IMG/VR virus record: IMGVR_UViG_3300017917_004222 | Coordinates: 32,001 to 96,000 of that record | Reading direction: 5' to 3' (one strand) | Source: a virus | DNA: 64,000 bases | In this document: one piece after another, positions 32,471-48,305 of the stretch | Layout: every line of letters starts with the position of its first letter | Position numbering within the stretch: position 1 is the first letter of the stretch | The notes under the pieces: model-generated | The model's database searches: none | The model's input: only the letters and a program-made list of their open reading frames with translations | What the model was told of the DNA's origin: nothing | Made by a program: the position numbers and the translations under genes

Positions 32471-33334
32471 ATGACCAGAGAAATTGTTGAGAAGTATATC
32501 AAGACCAAACGATTCACAGATAAAGTTAACCGGCCGCTGCGGGAAGAAGAATTGTTGGCGCTTGACGAAGTAGTCAAGTACTATGGAATATCAGTGTTCA
32601 CTCGAAACAAAAGTCCACTAGAATCTAGGATAATCAATGATCGAATCCCCCTTATGATCAAACACAATGTGGTGACCATTGTTGAAAATTTAGAAAAGTC
32701 AAAACATGTTCGGAGAAACTCCTTAGAACACTATGAATTGATTTATGGGGACTTTGCTAAAGAGATTTATCTTGCGCGCACAAAAAAGTCATTGCAATGT
32801 GAAGATAACTTTGTTGCTCGACACGGCGAACAAAAAGGAAGGGAACTATGGAAAGAGTTCAGCGCCAAAAAATCCAAAACATCGGCGTTTACTAACTCAA
32901 GAGACTGGTACGTTAAGCAATTTGGAGAAGAAGTAGGAAACAAAAAATGGGATGAGGTGGTCCTCAAGCGCCATCGCAAAAGGTGGACTATAGAAGGGTT
33001 GATCGAAACACATGGTAAGAGCCTAGGTGAGCAGATTTACAAAAACATGCTACAGACCAGACAGAGTTATAAAGGTTATGCTAGGAGAGTTCATGCACTC
33101 AGTCATCAAGTGTACGAAGACAACATCGACATCATAAATCCTAACCGTTATCCAAGAACATTATGCGGTGTTGACGGCGGCTGGCAACTGGATCATATTA
33201 AACCCATCAAAGAATGTTACATTCAAGGTATGTCAGTTGAGGATGCATCCAAGTTGGAAAATTTAAGGATGTTGCCATGGAAAGAAAATTTAGCGAGAAA
33301 CAAGAAAGCAAGGAAACAGAATGATCGAGTTTAA
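32471..33334 (+). mobile_element. Free-standing HNH homing endonuclease
   Basis: C-terminal 'WQLDHIKP...ENLRMLPWKEN..RN'; three '(H/F)G...G...(W/Y)' helical repeats; AT-rich; own TAAATA (32436-32441) and GGAG SD. Confidence 0.75.
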
Positions 33335-35399
33335 AACACTAACTGTCCGAAATTTTATGAGTGTGGGGAACTCAGTCCAAGCCGTGGACTTTGATCGTCG
33401 CGACCTCACACTGGTGCTGGGCGAAAACATGGACCTGGGTGGCGACGGTAGTCGCAATGGCACAGGCAAGACCACCATCATCAATGCCCTGAGCTATGCC
33501 TTGTATGGGCAGGCTCTCAGCAACATCCGCAAGGACAATTTGGTGAACAAGACCAATGGCAAGGGCATGTTGGTCAGTCTCAGCTTTGCCATCAACGGTC
33601 AAAACTATCGAATCGAGCGTGGTCGCAAGCCCAACGTGCTGCGATTCATTGTGAATGACCAAGTGCAAGGGCAAACCGGCGCCGACGAAGCACAAGGCGA
33701 CAGCCGTGAGACTCAAGAAGCCATTGAACGTGTGCTGAACATGAGTCACGACATGTTCAAGCATGTGCTGGCTCTCAACACCTACACCGAACCGTTCTTG
33801 AGTCTCAAGAGCAATGATCAGCGCACCATCATCGAGCAACTGCTGGGCATCACCATGCTGAGTGAAAAGGCCGAACGCATCAAGGAACAGTCGCGAGTGA
33901 CTCGTGATGCTGTGCAGACCGAAGAGCTGAGAATCCGCGCTGTGCAAGAAGCCAACAAGCGCATTGACGAACAGATCAACGGTCTCAAAATGCGTCAAAG
34001 CATGTGGCAGAAAAAACATGATGCTGATTTGAGTCAGTTGGTGACCGAGTTTGATGATCTGCAGCGCATCGACATCGACGCTGAACTGGCTGCACATGCT
34101 GCCTTGGCTGTGTGGTCCGAACAAAAGAAACGCCATGATGCATACATGGCCTTGGTTGCACGTCAACTGGCATGGCAACAGCGTCAGGCACGTGATATAC
34201 AAGCCCTGACGCAACAGCTGACTCAGCTGAGTCACATTGACTTTGATGCTGAACTGGCTGCACATGCTGCTCGGGCACAATGGCAGCGCGTGGTTGCCGA
34301 ACAGGCGGCTCTGCAGCGAAGCATGGCTGCCAACACTGCAGCGGTGGAAAAAGAGCGCCGCATGATCGAAAAGCTCACAGGCGAAATACAGACTCTAGAA
34401 CAACATCGTTGCTATGCTTGTGGCCAGGATTTCCATGATGACCAGCACACTCAGGTGCTGAACAGCAAGCGTGAGCAACTGGCAGAAAGCCAAGCACATC
34501 ACGATGCTGTGTTGGCCCGCATTGCCGAAGATCTCATGCTGGTGACTGATCCCGGAGAAGAGCCACGCACCTTCTACGCAACCGAAGCCGAAGCTGTGCG
34601 GCAAAGTGCAGAGATCGTGAACCTGCAGCAACAGATTGCCACACGTCAAAATGAAACTGATCCCTACTTAGAACAGCTGGCCGAAAGTGAATGCGGTGAC
34701 CCAGGTGCAGCACCGCGCACTCACTATGACTCTGAGCGTGAGGCAGTGGAGCATCGTTCCAGGGTCGAGACCTTGATTCAGCAGATTGAATCCCGAGCCA
34801 CGGAAACTGATCCCTACACTGATCAGATTCAAGACATGCAACAACGTGCCTTGCAGACTGTGGACTACACTGCTCTCAACGAACTCAATCGTTTACAAGA
34901 GCATCAGGAGTTCCTGCTCAAGCTGTTGACCAGCAAGGATTCGTTTGTGCGCAAGAAGATCATTGATCAGAACCTCAGCTATCTCAATCAGCGACTCACA
35001 CACTACCTGGATCGCATTGGACTGCCACACACGGTGAAATTTCAGAACGACCTGTCGGTCATGATTGAAGAGCTGGGACGTGAACTGGACTTTGACAACC
35101 TCAGCAGAGGCGAACGCACTCGCTTGATTCTCAGCATGAGCTGGGCATTCCGTGATGTGTGGGAAAGCCTGTACCACCCCATCAACCTGTTGTTCATTGA
35201 CGAACTCATGGACAACGGCCTTGACACCCAGGGTGTGGAAAACGGTCTGGCCCTGCTCAAGAAGATGAGTCGTGAACGCAACAAGAGCGTTTGGTTGGTG
35301 AGTCACCGTGATGAACTGGCCGGGCGTGTGGAGAATATTCTCAAAGTGGTCAAGGAGCGTGGCTTTACCAGCTACTCAACTGACGTGGAAACGCCATGA
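33321..35399 (+). CDS. gp46: Recombination endonuclease ATPase subunit gp46 (Rad50/SbcC-like)
   Basis: Walker A 'NGTGKTT', CYAC zinc hook, 'LSRGE' signature, Walker B 'LFIDE', 'SH' H-loop. Confidence 0.95.
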   Translation: MIEFKTLTVRNFMSVGNSVQAVDFDRRDLTLVLGENMDLGGDGSRNGTGKTTIINALSYALYGQALSNIRKDNLVNKTNGKGMLVSLSFAINGQNYRIERGRKPNVLRFIVNDQVQGQTGADEAQGDSRETQEAIERVLNMSHDMFKHVLALNTYTEPFLSLKSNDQRTIIEQLLGITMLSEKAERIKEQSRVTRDAVQTEELRIRAVQEANKRIDEQINGLKMRQSMWQKKHDADLSQLVTEFDDLQRIDIDAELAAHAALAVWSEQKKRHDAYMALVARQLAWQQRQARDIQALTQQLTQLSHIDFDAELAAHAARAQWQRVVAEQAALQRSMAANTAAVEKERRMIEKLTGEIQTLEQHRCYACGQDFHDDQHTQVLNSKREQLAESQAHHDAVLARIAEDLMLVTDPGEEPRTFYATEAEAVRQSAEIVNLQQQIATRQNETDPYLEQLAESECGDPGAAPRTHYDSEREAVEHRSRVETLIQQIESRATETDPYTDQIQDMQQRALQTVDYTALNELNRLQEHQEFLLKLLTSKDSFVRKKIIDQNLSYLNQRLTHYLDRIGLPHTVKFQNDLSVMIEELGRELDFDNLSRGERTRLILSMSWAFRDVWESLYHPINLLFIDELMDNGLDTQGVENGLALLKKMSRERNKSVWLVSHRDELAGRVENILKVVKERGFTSYSTDVETP

Positions 35400-35408
35400 A
35401 ATTTAAGT

Positions 35409-35454
35409 GTGTGCTGGGTCCGTGCATAATTACTTGCTCAAGGACCCAGCACAC
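35409..35454 (+). promoter_or_regulatory. SD-sequestering hairpin with a late-promoter-like TAATTA in its loop
   Basis: Perfect 13-bp stem GTGTGCTGGGTCC/GGACCCAGCACAC ending 2 nt before the ATG at 35457. Confidence 0.65.
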
Positions 35455-35456
35455 TC

Positions 35457-35900
35457 ATGACATGGCTATACCAAGGATCACCAGTTGAAACATTACCGGA
35501 AGAGTGTGCAGGATTTGTGTACCTTATTCAAAACACTCTAACCGGTCGCAAGTACATAGGCAAAAAACTAGCAAAATTTTCTCGAACCAGGCAGCAGACA
35601 GTAAAACTCAAGAACGGCAGCAAAAAGAAAAAGAAAATTCGCACCAAGGTGGATTCGGATTGGCGTGACTACTACGGTAGCAGTCCCGAGCTCACCCGAG
35701 ACATAGAACAGTTAGGCAAAGAGCATTTCACACGAGAGATCCTGTACTATTGCGGCAGCAAATCTGAATGCAGTTATGTTGAAGCAAGAGAGCAGTTCAC
35801 TCGCCGAGTACTAGAGTCCGATGAGTACTACAACGGTCACATTCAAGTGAGAGTGCATGGGTCGCACATTAAGGGCAAGATGATTAATGAAGCGCAATGA
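35457..35900 (+). CDS. Short GIY-YIG family nuclease (catalytic domain only)
   Basis: 'GFVYLIQNTLTGRKYIGKK...YYGSS...F.REIL...E...YYN'. Confidence 0.8.
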   Translation: MTWLYQGSPVETLPEECAGFVYLIQNTLTGRKYIGKKLAKFSRTRQQTVKLKNGSKKKKKIRTKVDSDWRDYYGSSPELTRDIEQLGKEHFTREILYYCGSKSECSYVEAREQFTRRVLESDEYYNGHIQVRVHGSHIKGKMINEAQ

Positions 35901-36117
35901 ATTCTCATACACTCGAATGCCGTTTGGTCAATATCGTGGACGCTACCTGCGAGAAGTGCCCGACCAGTATCTGGCCTGGGCATCTGTTGCAGTGAGCGAT
36001 CAAGGGCTTGCACTCATGTTCCGTGCTGAACTGGCCAATAGACACACTGACTGGCAGCAACTAGAAGCAAACCTTCAAGCATCCACTAGAAACAAACACA
36101 GGCAACATCAGCGGTAA
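35887..36117 (+). CDS. DUF3820-like small protein
   Basis: 'MPFGQYRG..L.EVPDQYL.W' motif; overlaps the GIY-YIG stop. Confidence 0.65.
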   Translation: MKRNEFSYTRMPFGQYRGRYLREVPDQYLAWASVAVSDQGLALMFRAELANRHTDWQQLEANLQASTRNKHRQHQR

Positions 36118-36660
36118 AGGCTTGCGCAGGCCAAATTCGTGCGCTCACGACAAGGGGTTTAACTACACCCGGACGGAAGACTCCAGCCGCCAGGAGCACT
36201 CAGCGACTATCCTTAACAGGACGACGATCGGATACGCCTTCGTACAACCGGTTTCGCTGTTTGAACAGAATTTTGAAAAAGGCTAAAAGACGCTGCCGCG
36301 AGGCAGCAGGTTTGTCGCATGCGCTGGTATGCATGTGGCAAGCTGCCGTTGTGAACAAGAACGAAACGAGCAGGTACCGGACAACCGCCTGTGCGTTTGC
36401 TAACAGCAAACATAGTTTTAATACCAGTGACTGCGCTACTCAGATGAAGTTCCAGTTTCTTTGCCCTGTGCGGGCAAAGTGTGACCACTTAATCTAGATG
36501 AATATTCTTTCGCTTCGCTTTGTTCAGTGCTGTTCTAAAACAAGTGTGAACGAAGTGAAACACAGATGTGCGTTAGCACATCTCCTGTGAGTGGGTGACA
36601 GTGACACTACAAATGAAAATCCACGTGTGTTACGTGGATTGAGGGTTTGGTGTCTTGACC
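36118..36660 (+). ncRNA. Candidate large structured non-coding RNA (alternatively a structured DNA element or origin)
   Basis: ~540 nt without a credible ORF; about 10 stems, including a GNRA tetraloop and G-U-rich helices on the + strand. Confidence 0.55.
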
Positions 36661-36664
36661 GACA

Positions 36665-36901
36665 TCAGAAGAATGGCAACTTGGAATTCTTGGTTGTTTC
36701 AATGTTCTCCTTGATCAGTTCATTGATCATGGTACGTTCAGCAGAGCTCATGTTCATAACGTCGTTGTAAGTGGCCCCTCCCCGCATGTGCCAGCTCATT
36801 TTGATGCAGCTCTTTCTGATGGTGTTGGCCTCCTGGTCCATCTGCTCAATCAAGGCCTGAATTTCGTCTGCTGCGTAATTCAGGAGGCGTCCTCGAAAAA
36901 A
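36665..36901 (-). CDS. -1 frame extension of the gp26-like chaperone (GT-like; gp51-like position)
   Basis: Open frame FFRGRLLN...KLPFF overlaps the end of 36880-37725 at a T TTT TTC heptamer; independent ATG initiation (MDQEA) is not excluded. Confidence 0.65.
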   Translation of the reverse strand, partial: FFRGRLLNYAADEIQALIEQMDQEANTIRKSCIKMSWHMRGGATYNDVMNMSSAERTMINELIKENIETTKNSKLPFF

Positions 36902-37725
36902 CTTGATGCATCCAGTGAGATACCCTGCTGATATTCGTGTCCGCACTCGGGGCAGGCTAGATTCATTGGAGGAATGTCACTGCCGGATCTCAATTCAATC
37001 ACATGATCTTTTATGCGGTTGAACGTGATACGATCGCAGTGTTCCAGCCATTCATGAATGTGTTCACGTTCGGTGACCACAGCAGTTGGAGTCTTGATGG
37101 CGGCAACCGAATATGAAATGGCTTCACTGGTGATGTGAGTGAGATCAAGCAAGGTCTTTTGTAACAGCGCTACCTTTTCTTCTTCGGGCATGCTGCGATC
37201 TGCAGTCAGCATGGCTATGGTTTTTTGCTGTTCAAACTGTTTGATGTTGATCTGATTGATCACGTCAAAGGTCATGGGCTGGAAATAAATTTCCAGGTCT
37301 CCATGAATCATGGGCTGTTCAAAGTCAACTCTTTTCAAATTGCCCAGCATGATACGCATGTCCGCTGAGTATTCTTGCTCGTGTTTGCAATTGGGACACT
37401 TGCTGGACACTTCCAACTCATGTCCGCTGCTGGCAATGCGGATTCCCAACAAAATGGCGTTCAAATCCACGCTGGGTACTTTCCATGCATTTTTAATGGC
37501 AGGCACACAGCTTTGTACCACAGACACCACGGCTTGTCCGTTGTACAGCGCATCCGGTGTTCGATAAGTGATTTCGTCAATGGCAGTCATGGGATACACC
37601 GGAATCTCGCGGTTGGCAGGCATGTCCAGTGCGCCTTCGAGCCAATGGTTTCCTTCGCTGGGTAACTGCAAATAGATGGCCGGTTGACGGAAAAATTGTG
37701 CTAGTGGGTTGGCGGAATTGGTCAT
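36880..37725 (-). CDS. Baseplate hub assembly/tail chaperone, gp26-like
   Basis: 'LPS.G...PMTAIDEI...DL..IL..IRIAS.G', two CxxC pairs, ends 'SFF'. Confidence 0.75.
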   Translation of the reverse strand: MTNSANPLAQFFRQPAIYLQLPSEGNHWLEGALDMPANREIPVYPMTAIDEITYRTPDALYNGQAVVSVVQSCVPAIKNAWKVPSVDLNAILLGIRIASSGHELEVSSKCPNCKHEQEYSADMRIMLGNLKRVDFEQPMIHGDLEIYFQPMTFDVINQINIKQFEQQKTIAMLTADRSMPEEEKVALLQKTLLDLTHITSEAISYSVAAIKTPTAVVTEREHIHEWLEHCDRITFNRIKDHVIELRSGSDIPPMNLACPECGHEYQQGISLDASSFFEDAS

Positions 37726-46443: not shown

Positions 46444-47208
46444 ATGAAACCTTATACCTATCTAATCAAACATCGTCCTTCGGGCAAAGTCTATTACGGA
46501 TTCCGCTGTGCAAATCGAGTGGAACCGCACGAAGACTTGTGGAAACATTACTTTACCAGTAGCCCTAAAATTCAGCAACTTATAGAAGAAACAGGCGCAG
46601 ACAGCTTTGATACAGAAATACGTCGAGTGTTTGAAACCAAAGAACAAGCTGTGGCTTGGGAAACTCGTGTGCTGACTCGATGCAAAGTTCTACATGACGA
46701 TCGTTGGATCAATCAAAACGTAGCAGGGTATATTGTGCCCACCGAGGAAAGCCGAAAGAAGATCAGCGACTTCCACAAAGACAAACCCAAGAGCGAGGAC
46801 CATAAAGAAAAAATACGCCAAGGCAATCTTGGAAAAAAGAAGCCGCCTCGTAGCGAAGAATATAGAGCTCTGATGTCTACGTTAAAATCAGGAGAGAATA
46901 ATCCAAGGTACGGCAAAGAAGTATCAGAGGAAACTCGACGTCGAATCAGCGAAGCCAAGAAGGGCAAACAGGTAGCACATAACAAAGGACAGGCTATGAG
47001 TGAAGAACAAAAAGCCAAGATACGTGCCGCCAAAGCTGCTAACCCTGTCAAGATGAGTGCAGAATCAATTCAAGCAAGAGCTGATAAACTACGAGGACAA
47101 CGTCGACCCAAGCTGCACTGTGGTCACTGTGGTAGAGACATTGCAGCAGGCTGGTTTCACCGGCACGGTGATCAGTGCAAACACCGCGGCAGTAGCGCCC
47201 AGGACTGA
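46444..47208 (+). mobile_element. Seg-like GIY-YIG homing endonuclease with NUMOD3 repeats
   Basis: 'PYTYLI...YYG.R...Y.TSS' catalytic domain; 'SEETRRRISEAKKG'-type repeats; C-terminal CxxC. Confidence 0.8.
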
Positions 47209-47468: not shown

Positions 47469-47600
47469 TGCATTTTGGATCCAGGCAAAAACACAGTTTG
47501 GACATAAATAATCAGTCCGCAATTGTGCGGCTTATGCTGAGATTAACACCCACAGCGTAGCGGTTAGAACCCGCATCGGGCTTCTTGAAGGAGAAAACAA

Positions 47601-48305
47601 ATGGGACGTCCACTCAAAATCAAAAAAACAACCACCGTTGACATCGGTTTCAATCCGTTCAGCGCACTGACCAATCCAATCTATCCTAGCGATCCAACCA
47701 CCTTTGATGGCACAGAATATCTGGGCGTGGTGGGCGGAGCCAACGCAGGTGTGGCCACTGCAGCATATCCAGTGGTCAAGGCTCGTGCCTACATCTCAGG
47801 TGCAGCTGCCGAAGACGATGCCTACATCATCACTCAACGCGGTACAACCAAGTACTTGGTGGCCACAGTGAGCGCTGTTAACGACGAAGACATGGTTGTG
47901 GGCAACACCTACCGTATTCTGTCAGTAGGCACCACCGACTGGGCCGCATGCGGTGCCACCCGCGCCAACGCTGCCGTGGGCGATATTTTCACTGCAACTG
48001 CCGCTGGAGCCGGAACAGGCACTGTGCAGCAGGTGGGAGTTTGTGTGCTGGCCAATCAAGCCGACGGCGCACTCACTGCTGGCAACATGAATATCACATT
48101 CAGCAACGGCGACAGCACTGTTCAACGGATCAGCAAGCTGACCAACAAATTTGCACTGGACTACAGCAATCCTCCGGTGCGCTACTTGGTCAACTTCTTC
48201 AGCGATGAAGGCTACGAAATCAAGTCTGGAACATCTGGCGCCACCAACGTGTCTGGACAACAGAACCAAGTGAGCTTGGCCATTGTAGAGAAGTTTACTT
48301 CTTGA
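47601..48305 (+). CDS. Probable virion structural protein (head-associated)
   Basis: Late promoter ATAAATA at 47504-47510; AAGGAG SD; next to the capsid gene; 'MGRPLK' start. Confidence 0.6.
   Translation: MGRPLKIKKTTTVDIGFNPFSALTNPIYPSDPTTFDGTEYLGVVGGANAGVATAAYPVVKARAYISGAAAEDDAYIITQRGTTKYLVATVSAVNDEDMVVGNTYRILSVGTTDWAACGATRANAAVGDIFTATAAGAGTGTVQQVGVCVLANQADGALTAGNMNITFSNGDSTVQRISKLTNKFALDYSNPPVRYLVNFFSDEGYEIKSGTSGATNVSGQQNQVSLAIVEKFTS

What the first reader, a model, noticed from the sequence alone, without database searches (positions are those of the whole stretch)
35409..36660. Candidate nuclease + RNA cassette: minimal GIY-YIG, DUF3820-like protein and a ~540-nt structured non-coding region
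Seen: the longest non-coding stretch in a densely packed window begins right after two overlapping small genes and is full of stems. These include CAGCGA/TCGCTG (36201-06/36254-59) closing a multi-branch junction and GCTGCC-GCGA-GGCAGC (36292-36307, GNRA tetraloop). There is a 14-bp helix with 4 G-U pairs (36309-22/36331-44) and a 13-bp helix with 2 G-U pairs (36514-26/36547-59). Further hairpins lie at 36395-36411, 36459-79, 36564-83 and 36618-40. G-U (rather than A-C) mismatches and a GNRA loop on the + strand point to selection on an RNA fold. I do not recognise it as tmRNA, RNase P, an intron or a tRNA. Known: free-standing GIY-YIG homing nucleases normally carry DNA-binding tails, as 46444-47208 does; this 147-aa one has none, and its translation appears gated by a hairpin. 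Inference: an undescribed phage ncRNA, possibly a ribonucleoprotein partner or specificity factor for the nuclease. Alternatively it is a structured replication or packaging element that the nuclease nicks.
Basis: partly seen in the sequence, partly recalled or inferred. Interest (0 to 1): 0.85.

Follow-up and report, generated by a model that had tools for sequence, protein, structure and literature searches.

The report
Large phage RNA beside GIY-YIG nuclease
The "unknown" non-coding stretch is a real, about 465-nt structured RNA whose first third is the already catalogued Polynucleobacter-1 motif (Rfam RF01718); in hundreds of freshwater T4-like phage contigs it lies just behind a small, unusually conserved GIY-YIG nuclease gene, and what it does is still unknown.

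Summary
Window 36119-36585 (+) is a densely structured non-coding RNA: 73 pairs, 97.7% paired across 69 diverse homologues, 46 pairs with compensatory changes. Slid controls gave 34-42% paired.

It is not undescribed. Bases 36119-36262 match Rfam RF01718 (Polynucleobacter-1 RNA, Weinberg 2010) at 94.6 bits against a cut-off of 37. The raw 2010 alignment already showed a 3' "tail" with a pseudoknot, and noted an upstream gene family resembling PSSM2_218.

New here:
- That upstream gene is the 147-aa minimal GIY-YIG nuclease (PF19835, phrog_447).
- The RNA is about 465 nt. Its conserved 3' domain is absent from Rfam.
- Its 5' region has three exchangeable forms. Two of them get no Rfam hit.
- The carriers are T4-like freshwater phages with the gene order gp47-gp46-GIY-RNA-gp26.
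- Every close GIY homologue with enough downstream DNA has the RNA (70 of 70).
- Cultured-phage homologues at 48% identity or less lack it.

The DUF3820 ORF is a lineage-specific insert, one of many at the GIY/RNA junction. The hairpin at 36618-40 is the terminator of the opposing operon.

Function is unproven. I favour a stable trans-acting RNA made from the nuclease transcript, possibly a protein-binding scaffold. An RNA-nuclease particle is possible (about 0.15-0.3).

The parts
35408..35454 (+). 13-bp hairpin ending 2 nt before the GIY-YIG start codon. A late-promoter-like CATAATTA sits in its loop at 35425-32.
   Evidence: The 81-nt segment folds at -36.8 kcal/mol. The hairpin is kept in the nearest kin L002 (-29.5) but absent in most of 60 relatives, whose mean is -10.3. 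The motif ATAA[C/T]TA lies within 45 nt upstream of the ATG in 40 of 60 loci against 2.6% background.
35457..35900 (+). Minimal GIY-YIG nuclease gene, 147 aa (phrog_447; the cyanophage 'NAD synthetase'/gp202/PSSM2_218 family).
   Evidence: PF19835 at 115 bits over profile positions 1-123 of 123, and phrog_447 at 135 bits. 35% identity to PSSM2_218, E 2e-19. AF2 model pLDDT 95.7. Best structural match is the I-TevI catalytic domain, Z 8.7. Y22, Y33, G35, E109 and N126 are invariant in 65 diverse homologues.
35887..36117 (+). 76-aa DUF3820-like ORF, a lineage-specific insert between the nuclease gene and the RNA.
   Evidence: PF12843 at 33 bits, matching only residues 8-32. Found at this place only in the window, L002-L012 and L055.
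36119..36262 (+). 5' domain of the RNA = Rfam RF01718, Polynucleobacter-1. It starts 1 nt after the stop codon.
   Evidence: cmscan 94.6 bits against a gathering score of 37, E 1e-20, model positions 1-141 of 141. Helices 36124-28/36140-44, 36181-84/36193-96, 36201-06/36254-59 and 36226-31/36248-53 covary. A small pseudoknot stem, 36119-21/36130-32, covaries as GC/AU.
36263..36362 (+). Central part: A-rich linker, GNRA-capped hairpin 36292-307, long hairpin 36309-44, short helix 36348-50/36360-62.
   Evidence: The same elements are visible in the flanks of the 2010 raw alignment.
36324..36427 (+). Pseudoknot: the loop of the long hairpin (36324-30, CUGGUAU) pairs with 36421-27 (AUACCAG).
   Evidence: Mutual information on A2: 36327/36424 GC 58, AU 11; 36328/36423 CG 51, UA 18; 36329/36422 GC 43, AU 25.
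36364..36505 (+). Conserved 3' core shared by all three RNA forms: helix 36364-67/36415-18, GGUACCGGACAACCGCC, twin modules 36427-48 and 36481-502, hairpin 36459-79, and long-range CAC(36197-99)/GUG(36481-83).
   Evidence: Highest conservation of the whole RNA. An iterated nhmmer profile of this part finds it in 195 loci, including forms B and C. The twin modules change in concert.
36512..36585 (+). 3' end module: optional strand UCGCUUCGCU (36512-21), hairpin 36544-47/36560-63 with a GA/GNRA-type loop, and terminal hairpin 36564-83.
   Evidence: 60 of 69 sequences with 27 different stems; all 7 pairs of the terminal hairpin have compensatory changes.
36618..36640 (-). Intrinsic terminator of the convergent minus-strand genes (93-aa ORF and gp26-like baseplate hub). 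Not part of the RNA.
   Evidence: The terminator scan places the stem plus T-run on the minus strand only. There is no conservation with relatives here.

Best explanation
IDENTITY (shown, about 0.97). Window 36119-36585 encodes a member of the Polynucleobacter-1 RNA family. It is a multi-domain, pseudoknotted RNA of about 465 nt, carried by a large lineage of uncultured freshwater T4-like (Kyanoviridae-related) phages. It sits at a fixed place: gp47, gp46, minimal GIY-YIG nuclease, RNA, then the converging baseplate genes.

HOW IT IS MADE (inferred). The RNA has no promoter of its own. It begins 0-3 nt after the stop codon of whatever gene precedes it. So it is transcribed as the 3' part of the nuclease mRNA, from a late-type ATAAYTA promoter just upstream of the nuclease gene. 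It probably persists as a stable species, protected by its compact fold and terminal hairpin.

WHAT IT DOES (inferred, about 0.4 overall). It acts in trans as a structured scaffold rather than as a UTR.
- The conserved 3' domain carries two copies of one module, GUGAC-N9-10-CUxRGAUGA, that mutate in concert. This fits two equivalent binding sites for one dimeric or duplicated partner.
- The exchangeable 5' domain (forms A, B, C) adds a variable function.
- The nuclease next door is the leading candidate partner (about 0.15-0.3), but a host or other phage protein is equally open.

The DUF3820 ORF is a passenger inserted at the junction.
For: - Rfam hit at 94.6 bits over the whole model.
- Covariation: 97.7% of cells paired against 34-42% when slid; 806 compensatory cells against 72-126; 0 of 500 shuffles reach the observed values.
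- G-U pairs set the strand.
- An extra pseudoknot is seen by mutual information.
- Non-coding.
586 of 600 candidate stretches encode a GIY relative. At least 8000 GIY protein clusters at 90% identity.
- Linkage: GIY upstream in 127 of 132 RNA-first loci. The 3' domain was found in all 70 protein-first loci with enough downstream DNA.
- Synteny with gp46, gp47 and gp26 is kept.
- The nuclease is under strong constraint. Median identity to the window is 72.5%, against gp46 52.5%, gp47 68.7% and gp26 40.1%. It is higher than gp46 in 66 of 66 loci.
- The RNA-linked clade has a fixed 31-aa Lys-rich beta-hairpin, against 20-25 aa in homologues without the RNA.
- The ATAAYTA motif lies upstream of GIY in 40 of 60 loci against 2.6% background, and no sigma-70-like promoter was found in 35200-37000.
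- The RNA keeps its place and start when other ORFs are inserted upstream, which argues against a UTR specific to the nuclease message.
- Twin modules change in concert: 69 of 69 and 68 of 69 concordant.
Against: - RNA ends, processing and stability are therefore all inferred.
- Linkage to the nuclease sits inside one syntenic phage lineage, so shared descent alone could explain it.
- Homologous nucleases at 30-48% identity in Melnitz, S-CAM7, P-SSM2, RHph_I1_18, Moby and phiEa104 have no such RNA, and genes follow them directly.
- L130 carries the RNA with no GIY gene between gp46 and the RNA.
- Phages with 96% identical nuclease genes carry different RNA 5' forms, so the 5' domain at least is not matched to the protein.
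- No protein column tracks the twin-module letters better than background.
- The terminal hairpin is not followed by a U-run, so the 3' end is undefined.
Confidence: 0.45

Rival explanations
1. Domesticated homing or marker-exclusion nuclease next to its target. The GIY-YIG enzyme cuts DNA of the neighbouring RNA gene, in its variable 5' region or at the junction, in co-infecting related phages. The RNA is an independent functional gene that merely offers a conserved target, as tRNA genes do for T4 SegB. The discrete 5' forms are cleavage-resistant alleles.
For: - The catalytic domain is of the SegE/I-TevI homing type: PF19835, and I-TevI at Z 8.7.
- The three RNA 5' forms are scattered over the gp46 tree: 9 changes, with starred branches forcing at least 3 for each of forms B and C.
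- L212 against L208: 96% identical nuclease genes, similarity ending exactly at the stop codon and resuming in the 3' module.
- The same junction is a hot spot for inserted ORFs, as expected where double-strand breaks are repaired repeatedly.
- From general knowledge: free-standing T4 Seg and Mob nucleases cut close to their own insertion site.
Against: - There is no DNA-binding domain at all. The second GIY-YIG of the same window, 46444-47208, has NUMOD3.
- The gene is fixed in the lineage and more conserved than gp46, which is the opposite of the gain-decay cycle of selfish nucleases.
- The family is also conserved elsewhere in cyanophage genomes, without any RNA next to it.
Confidence: 0.2
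2. RNA-dependent nuclease. The RNA is the scaffold or specificity subunit of a GIY-YIG ribonucleoprotein. The conserved 3' domain binds a nuclease dimer through the twin modules, and the exchangeable 5' domain or the hypervariable linker (36503-40) sets the target. This would parallel HEARO RNA and IscB.
For: - Strict adjacency of a domain-less nuclease and a large conserved RNA.
- A clade-specific extended basic hairpin in the protein.
- Twin modules that evolve in concert.
- Architecture of a conserved scaffold plus a variable part.
- Precedent: a nuclease-associated large RNA found by comparative genomics proved to be a guide scaffold (HEARO enzymes, PMC9755519).
Against: - No unstructured guide-like segment was identified.
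- RNA matches to the phage's own 148 kb are not enriched: 4 matches of 13-14 nt against 1.3 expected, with a maximum of 4 in shuffles.
- No protein-RNA covariation.
- Relatives of the nuclease work without RNA.
- L130 lacks the adjacent nuclease.
- No RNA-guided GIY-YIG enzyme came up in the literature search.
Confidence: 0.15
3. Cis-acting 3' UTR that stabilises or autoregulates the nuclease mRNA, or simply a structured buffer between convergent operons.
For: The RNA starts immediately after a stop codon and has no promoter of its own. It lies where two transcription units converge.
Against: - About 465 nt with at least 15 covarying helices, two pseudoknots and sequence blocks that are invariant across phages whose gp46 is 45% identical. 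This is far more than stabilisation needs.
- The RNA is kept unchanged when unrelated ORFs become its upstream neighbour, and in L130.
Confidence: 0.1
4. A DNA-level element, such as a replication origin or a packaging or recombination site, folded as single-stranded DNA and nicked by the nuclease.
For: It lies beside the recombination nucleases gp46 and gp47 and another nuclease.
Against: Strand-specific G-U pairs, GNRA tetraloops, tandem G-A motifs and pseudoknots with covariation are RNA features. The Rfam family was built and scored as an RNA.
Confidence: 0.03

Closest known systems
Polynucleobacter-1 RNA motif (Rfam RF01718; Weinberg et al. 2010, PMC2864571)
   Same: The window's bases 36119-36262 match the full model at 94.6 bits. 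It lies downstream of the same gene family (GOS11034, PSSM2_218-like). The 3' 'tail' hairpins and pseudoknot noted in the 2010 raw alignment are present.
   Different: - Rfam holds only 141 positions; the RNA here is about 465 nt, and its most conserved part (the 3' domain) is outside the model.
- The 2010 authors found it in no sequenced purified phage and did not recognise the neighbour as a GIY-YIG nuclease.
- Two sister forms (B, C) with the same 3' domain get no Rfam hit.
HEARO RNA / omega-RNA with IscB (OMEGA systems; PMC9755519)
   Same: A large conserved structured RNA, found by comparative genomics, lying next to a small nuclease gene with no obvious targeting domain.
   Different: The nuclease fold is GIY-YIG, not HNH/RuvC. 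There are no transposon ends, no identified guide segment, and no evidence of binding. The element sits at a fixed place in a phage genome rather than in mobile copies.
T4 free-standing GIY-YIG homing nucleases (SegA-G; SegB in the tRNA gene cluster) and I-TevI
   Same: The catalytic domain type is the same (PF19835; I-TevI Z 8.7). The position is next to conserved RNA genes. In the window lineage, a hairpin over the ribosome site with a late-promoter-like motif inside resembles I-TevI control. The comparison with T4 rests on general knowledge.
   Different: There is no DNA-binding tail. The gene is fixed and strongly conserved in its lineage instead of sporadic.
Large orphan RNAs of phages and prophages (GOLLD, ROOL)
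   Same: Several hundred nucleotides, many covarying helices, phage-borne, function unknown.
   Different: No sequence or model match: none is reported by cmscan over the window. This RNA is tied to a nuclease gene rather than to tRNA clusters.

Membership tests
Rfam RF01718 Polynucleobacter-1 RNA | Covariance-model score at or above the curated gathering score, over the whole model | tested here: met
   94.6 bits against 37; model positions 1-141 of 141; E 1e-20.
Rfam RF01718 Polynucleobacter-1 RNA | Model helices kept by compensatory change in homologues | tested here: met
   Helices 1-7 on A2 are 96-100% paired, and most pairs have changes on both sides.
Rfam RF01718 Polynucleobacter-1 RNA | Lies downstream of the GOS11034 / PSSM2_218-like gene (2010 supplement) | tested here: met
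   The 147-aa ORF is 35% identical to PSSM2_218, E 2e-19. It is upstream in 127 of 132 loci. In the window one small ORF lies between them.
GIY-YIG nuclease superfamily (PF19835 SegE_GIY-YIG) | Profile match, GIY-YIG fold, and catalytic Tyr, Tyr, Glu and Asn | tested here: met
   115 bits against 25. I-TevI Z 8.7, PD-T4-3 Z 7.4, UvrC-N Z 5.7, EndoII Z 5.5. Y22, Y33, G35, E109 and N126 are invariant and R93 is kept in at least 90% of sequences.
Free-standing homing endonuclease (Seg type) | C-terminal DNA-binding module (NUMOD, IENR1 or helix-turn-helix) | tested here: not met
   The protein ends about 20 aa after the catalytic domain. No second Pfam domain is found, whereas 46444-47208 in the same window has NUMOD3.
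Free-standing homing endonuclease (Seg type) | Sporadic presence among close relatives, with decay | tested here: not met
   Present in nearly all loci of the lineage and more conserved than gp46 in 66 of 66 loci.
RNA-guided nuclease systems (OMEGA-like) | Conserved scaffold RNA next to the nuclease gene | tested here: met
RNA-guided nuclease systems (OMEGA-like) | A variable guide segment that matches targets | tested here: inconclusive
   A hypervariable linker exists at 36503-40. Matches to the phage's own 148 kb are not enriched. Host and competitor genomes were not available.
RNA-guided nuclease systems (OMEGA-like) | Physical RNA-protein complex and RNA-dependent cleavage | not testable with these tools
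   Needs biochemistry.
T4 endonuclease II (DenA)-like host-DNA nuclease | Specific structural or sequence kinship to EndoII (PDB 2WSH) | tested here: inconclusive
   Z 5.5, rmsd 3.7 A over 83 residues, weaker than I-TevI. No sequence or profile hit in the PDB.
PF12843 (DUF3820 / QSregVF_b) for the 76-aa ORF | Profile match over the domain | tested here: inconclusive
   33.3 bits against 22, but only profile positions 10-34 of 66 are matched.
Kink-turn / K-loop motifs (for the twin modules) | Tandem sheared G-A pairs next to a bulge or loop, shown by structure or probing | not testable with these tools
   This rests only on resemblance by eye of GUGA...GAUGA to box D'/C'.

The most novel reading that the evidence does not exclude
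The RNA and the minimal GIY-YIG enzyme form a ribonucleoprotein. A nuclease dimer sits on the twin, concertedly evolving modules of the conserved 3' scaffold. The swappable 5' domain (forms A, B, C) or the hypervariable linker determines what is cut or spared, for example in competition between co-infecting phages. This would be the first RNA-dependent GIY-YIG nuclease, a parallel to HEARO and IscB.
Probability: 0.15. Interest if true: 0.9.

Novelty: new member of a known kind. Interest (0 to 1): 0.55.

Why it matters
Polynucleobacter-1 has been an orphan Rfam motif since 2010, with no function and no known carrier.

Results here:
- It is placed in a very abundant lineage of freshwater T4-like phages.
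- Its constant neighbour is identified as a nuclease.
- The catalogued 141 nt turn out to be only the variable front end of a modular RNA of about 465 nt. The back end is conserved, and two further front ends are uncatalogued.

That turns an orphan motif into a testable system: one gene, one RNA, three natural alleles. The history of HEARO RNA and IscB shows that nuclease-associated large RNAs can hide new enzymology.

Even if the RNA works without the nuclease, it joins the few large phage RNAs whose role is open. Its twin modules, which mutate in concert, are an unusual and unexplained evolutionary pattern.

Tried and rejected
- tRNA or tmRNA: ARAGORN finds none in the window.
- Other Rfam families over 35300-36900 at E up to 10: only chance-level microRNA and leader hits far below their cut-offs.
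- Near or distant DNA match in cultured phages: none.
- Protein-coding reading of the region: rejected.
- DUF3820 as the conserved partner. This was my first lead from the 2010 wording. Rejected, because the ORF is present only in the window's kin and L055.
- T4 EndoII (DenA) identity of the nuclease: not specifically supported.
- Polynucleobacter genome context: could not be reached.
- Protein-RNA covariation between the twin-module letters and nuclease residues: ranks 35-139 of 233 RNA columns, no signal above phylogenetic background.
- Guide-like complementarity of the RNA to the phage's own 148 kb: not enriched.
- Plain nhmmer with a form-A profile missed forms B and C and the Polynucleobacter-like subgroup. 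An iterated 3'-domain profile was needed.
- Literature on RNA-guided GIY-YIG enzymes or on phages of Polynucleobacter with this RNA: nothing found.
Full report
WHAT IS THERE

The window is part of a 148-kb IMG/VR virus record. Around the finding, the + strand carries three genes:
- a gp46/SbcC-like gene, 33321-35399;
- a 147-aa GIY-YIG gene, 35457-35900;
- a 76-aa DUF3820-like ORF, 35887-36117.

An ORF-free stretch follows, up to 36664. There a 93-aa ORF and a gp26-like baseplate-hub gene arrive on the minus strand. The stretch is the longest ORF-free region of the window. Its chance ORFs are not kept in relatives.

IT IS A KNOWN RNA MOTIF, IN PART

- cmscan against Rfam 15 places RF01718 (Polynucleobacter-1 RNA) on 36119-36262. 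The score is 94.6 bits against a gathering score of 37, over the whole 141-position model. The match starts one base after the stop codon.
- The motif comes from Weinberg et al. 2010 (PMC2864571).
- Their supplement says three things. The 3' half is not always detected. Most copies lie downstream of gene family GOS11034, which resembles PSSM2_218 of cyanophage P-SSM2. No copy was seen in any sequenced purified phage.
- Their raw alignment carries a 'tail' sub-family with a pseudoknot. Its flanks show the same hairpins and sequence blocks as the window's downstream part.

It is partly met for the rest.

THE RNA IS LARGER, AND REAL

- Conservation runs from 36119 to about 36505. A further conserved module ends with the hairpin 36564-83.
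- On 69 homologues below 90% pairwise identity (A2), RNAalifold predicts 71 pairs, 44 of them with compensatory changes.
- With one added pseudoknot stem, 73 pairs are 97.7% paired, against 34-42% when partners are slid. There are 806 compensatory cells against 72-126 in the slid controls. No shuffle out of 500 reaches any observed measure.
- Mutual information adds a 7-bp pseudoknot between the loop of the long hairpin (36324-30) and 36421-27.
- The 3' end holds a hairpin with tandem G-A, two G-C pairs and a GNRA loop. It is found in 60 of 69 sequences with 27 different stems. The terminal hairpin follows it.
- Abundant G-U pairs fix the + strand.
- The single sequence folds only moderately better than shuffles, at z -3.2.
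- The hairpin at 36618-40 belongs to the opposing operon as its terminator.

WHO CARRIES IT, AND WHAT IS THE PARTNER GENE

- In the RNA-first set, the ORF that ends at the RNA start is a close homologue of the 147-aa GIY-YIG protein in 100 loci. It lies one ORF further upstream in most of the rest, giving 127 of 132 in all.
- DUF3820 occupies the junction only in the window's kin (L002-L012) and in L055.
- Elsewhere the inserted ORF is a zinc-ribbon protein, a methyltransferase-like protein or an unknown protein.
- One contig, L130, has SDR-like, radical-SAM and PD-(D/E)xK nuclease genes there, and no GIY gene.
- Neighbours are conserved (gp47, gp46 and gp26-like), so this is one phage lineage.
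- PSSM2_218 is a homologue at 35% identity, E 2e-19. The 2010 'GOS11034' neighbour is therefore this nuclease family (phrog_447), which cyanophage records mislabel as 'NAD synthetase'.
- Searching from the protein side, 586 of 600 candidate stretches encode a relative. The 80 best (65-85% identity) were kept. All 70 of these with enough downstream DNA carry the RNA's 3' domain.
- Cultured-phage homologues, at 48% identity or less (the best is Methylophilales phage Melnitz), have no RF01718 hit, and genes follow them directly.

THE NUCLEASE

- It is a complete GIY-YIG catalytic domain. The AF2 model has pLDDT 95.7, and the best structural match is the I-TevI catalytic domain at Z 8.7.
- The catalytic Tyr, Tyr, Glu and Asn are invariant.
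- It has no DNA-binding tail.
- It is the best-conserved gene of the neighbourhood. Median identity to the window is 72.5%, against 52.5% for gp46, and it is higher than gp46 in 66 of 66 loci. This does not fit a decaying selfish nuclease.
- The RNA-linked clade has a fixed 31-residue Lys-rich beta-hairpin, where RNA-less homologues have 20-25 residues.
- A motif ATAA[C/T]TA, close to the T4 late promoter, precedes the start codon in 40 of 60 loci against 2.6% background.
- The strong hairpin over the ribosome site is specific to the window's lineage.

MODULAR RNA

- The region between the upstream stop codon and the 3' domain falls into three discrete forms: A (150 loci, including the Rfam type), C (33) and B (11).
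- Forms B and C match no Rfam family.
- The forms are scattered over the gp46 tree: 9 changes, where shuffled labels give 14-17.
- L212 (form B) and L208 (form C) have 96% identical nuclease genes. Their similarity ends at the stop codon and returns only in the RNA's 3' module.
- Within the 3' domain, two copies of one module (36427-48 and 36481-502) carry the same letter at two variable positions in 69 of 69 and 68 of 69 sequences. Neither position pairs with any other column.

READING

The identity is settled. The function is not.

- I favour a stable trans-acting RNA made from the nuclease transcript. The RNA keeps its exact start and sequence whatever ORF precedes it, and its complexity exceeds what a UTR needs.
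- The twin modules suggest two equivalent sites for one partner. The nuclease is the obvious candidate, but nothing shows binding.
- The mosaic 5' forms and the insertion hot spot fit a rival: a domesticated homing or exclusion nuclease that cuts this region in competing phages.
- Tests for a guide function and for protein-RNA covariation were negative or uninformative.
- No expression data were available.

Noticed in passing
window 47504-47603: A second Rfam hit: RF02980 freshwater-2 RNA at 66.1 bits (cut-off 49.9), 47515-47603 (+). A late-promoter-like ATAAATA sits 4 nt upstream, at 47504. The motif runs into the start codon of a 234-aa ORF at 47601, so it looks like a late-gene leader. It lies about 300 nt downstream of the window's other GIY-YIG gene (46444-47208, which has NUMOD3).
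   Followed up: partly
L160, L163, L166, L191, L212 (between the GIY gene and the RNA): An ORF of about 85 aa with a CxxC...CxxC zinc-ribbon-like end (…ICNTCGGKF.NWIPKG…) is inserted at the same junction where the window has DUF3820. Several unrelated passengers use this one site.
   Followed up: partly
L130:6280-8477: A syntenic contig where SDR-like, radical-SAM and PDDEXK_15 nuclease genes replace the GIY-YIG gene between gp46 and the RNA. It is the only clear case of the RNA without the adjacent GIY gene.
   Followed up: partly
L212 compared with L151 and L208, between gp46 and the GIY gene: L212 carries about 1 kb of extra DNA between gp46 and the nuclease gene that its near relatives lack. 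The gp46/GIY junction is therefore also variable.
   Followed up: no
window 36514-36526 with 36547-36559: The optional strand UCGCUUCGCU is complementary to the conserved GAGCG..GCGAA loop of the 3' hairpin. The two pairings exclude each other, which could make a switch. The strand is missing in at least 10 of 69 homologues.
   Followed up: partly
(protein family): The minimal GIY-YIG family is very large: at least 8000 clusters at 90% identity, and 2136 clusters at 50% identity with E of 1e-3 or better. Most members are stand-alone proteins of 140-150 aa. Many records still call them 'NAD synthetase', which looks like an annotation error that has spread.
   Followed up: partly
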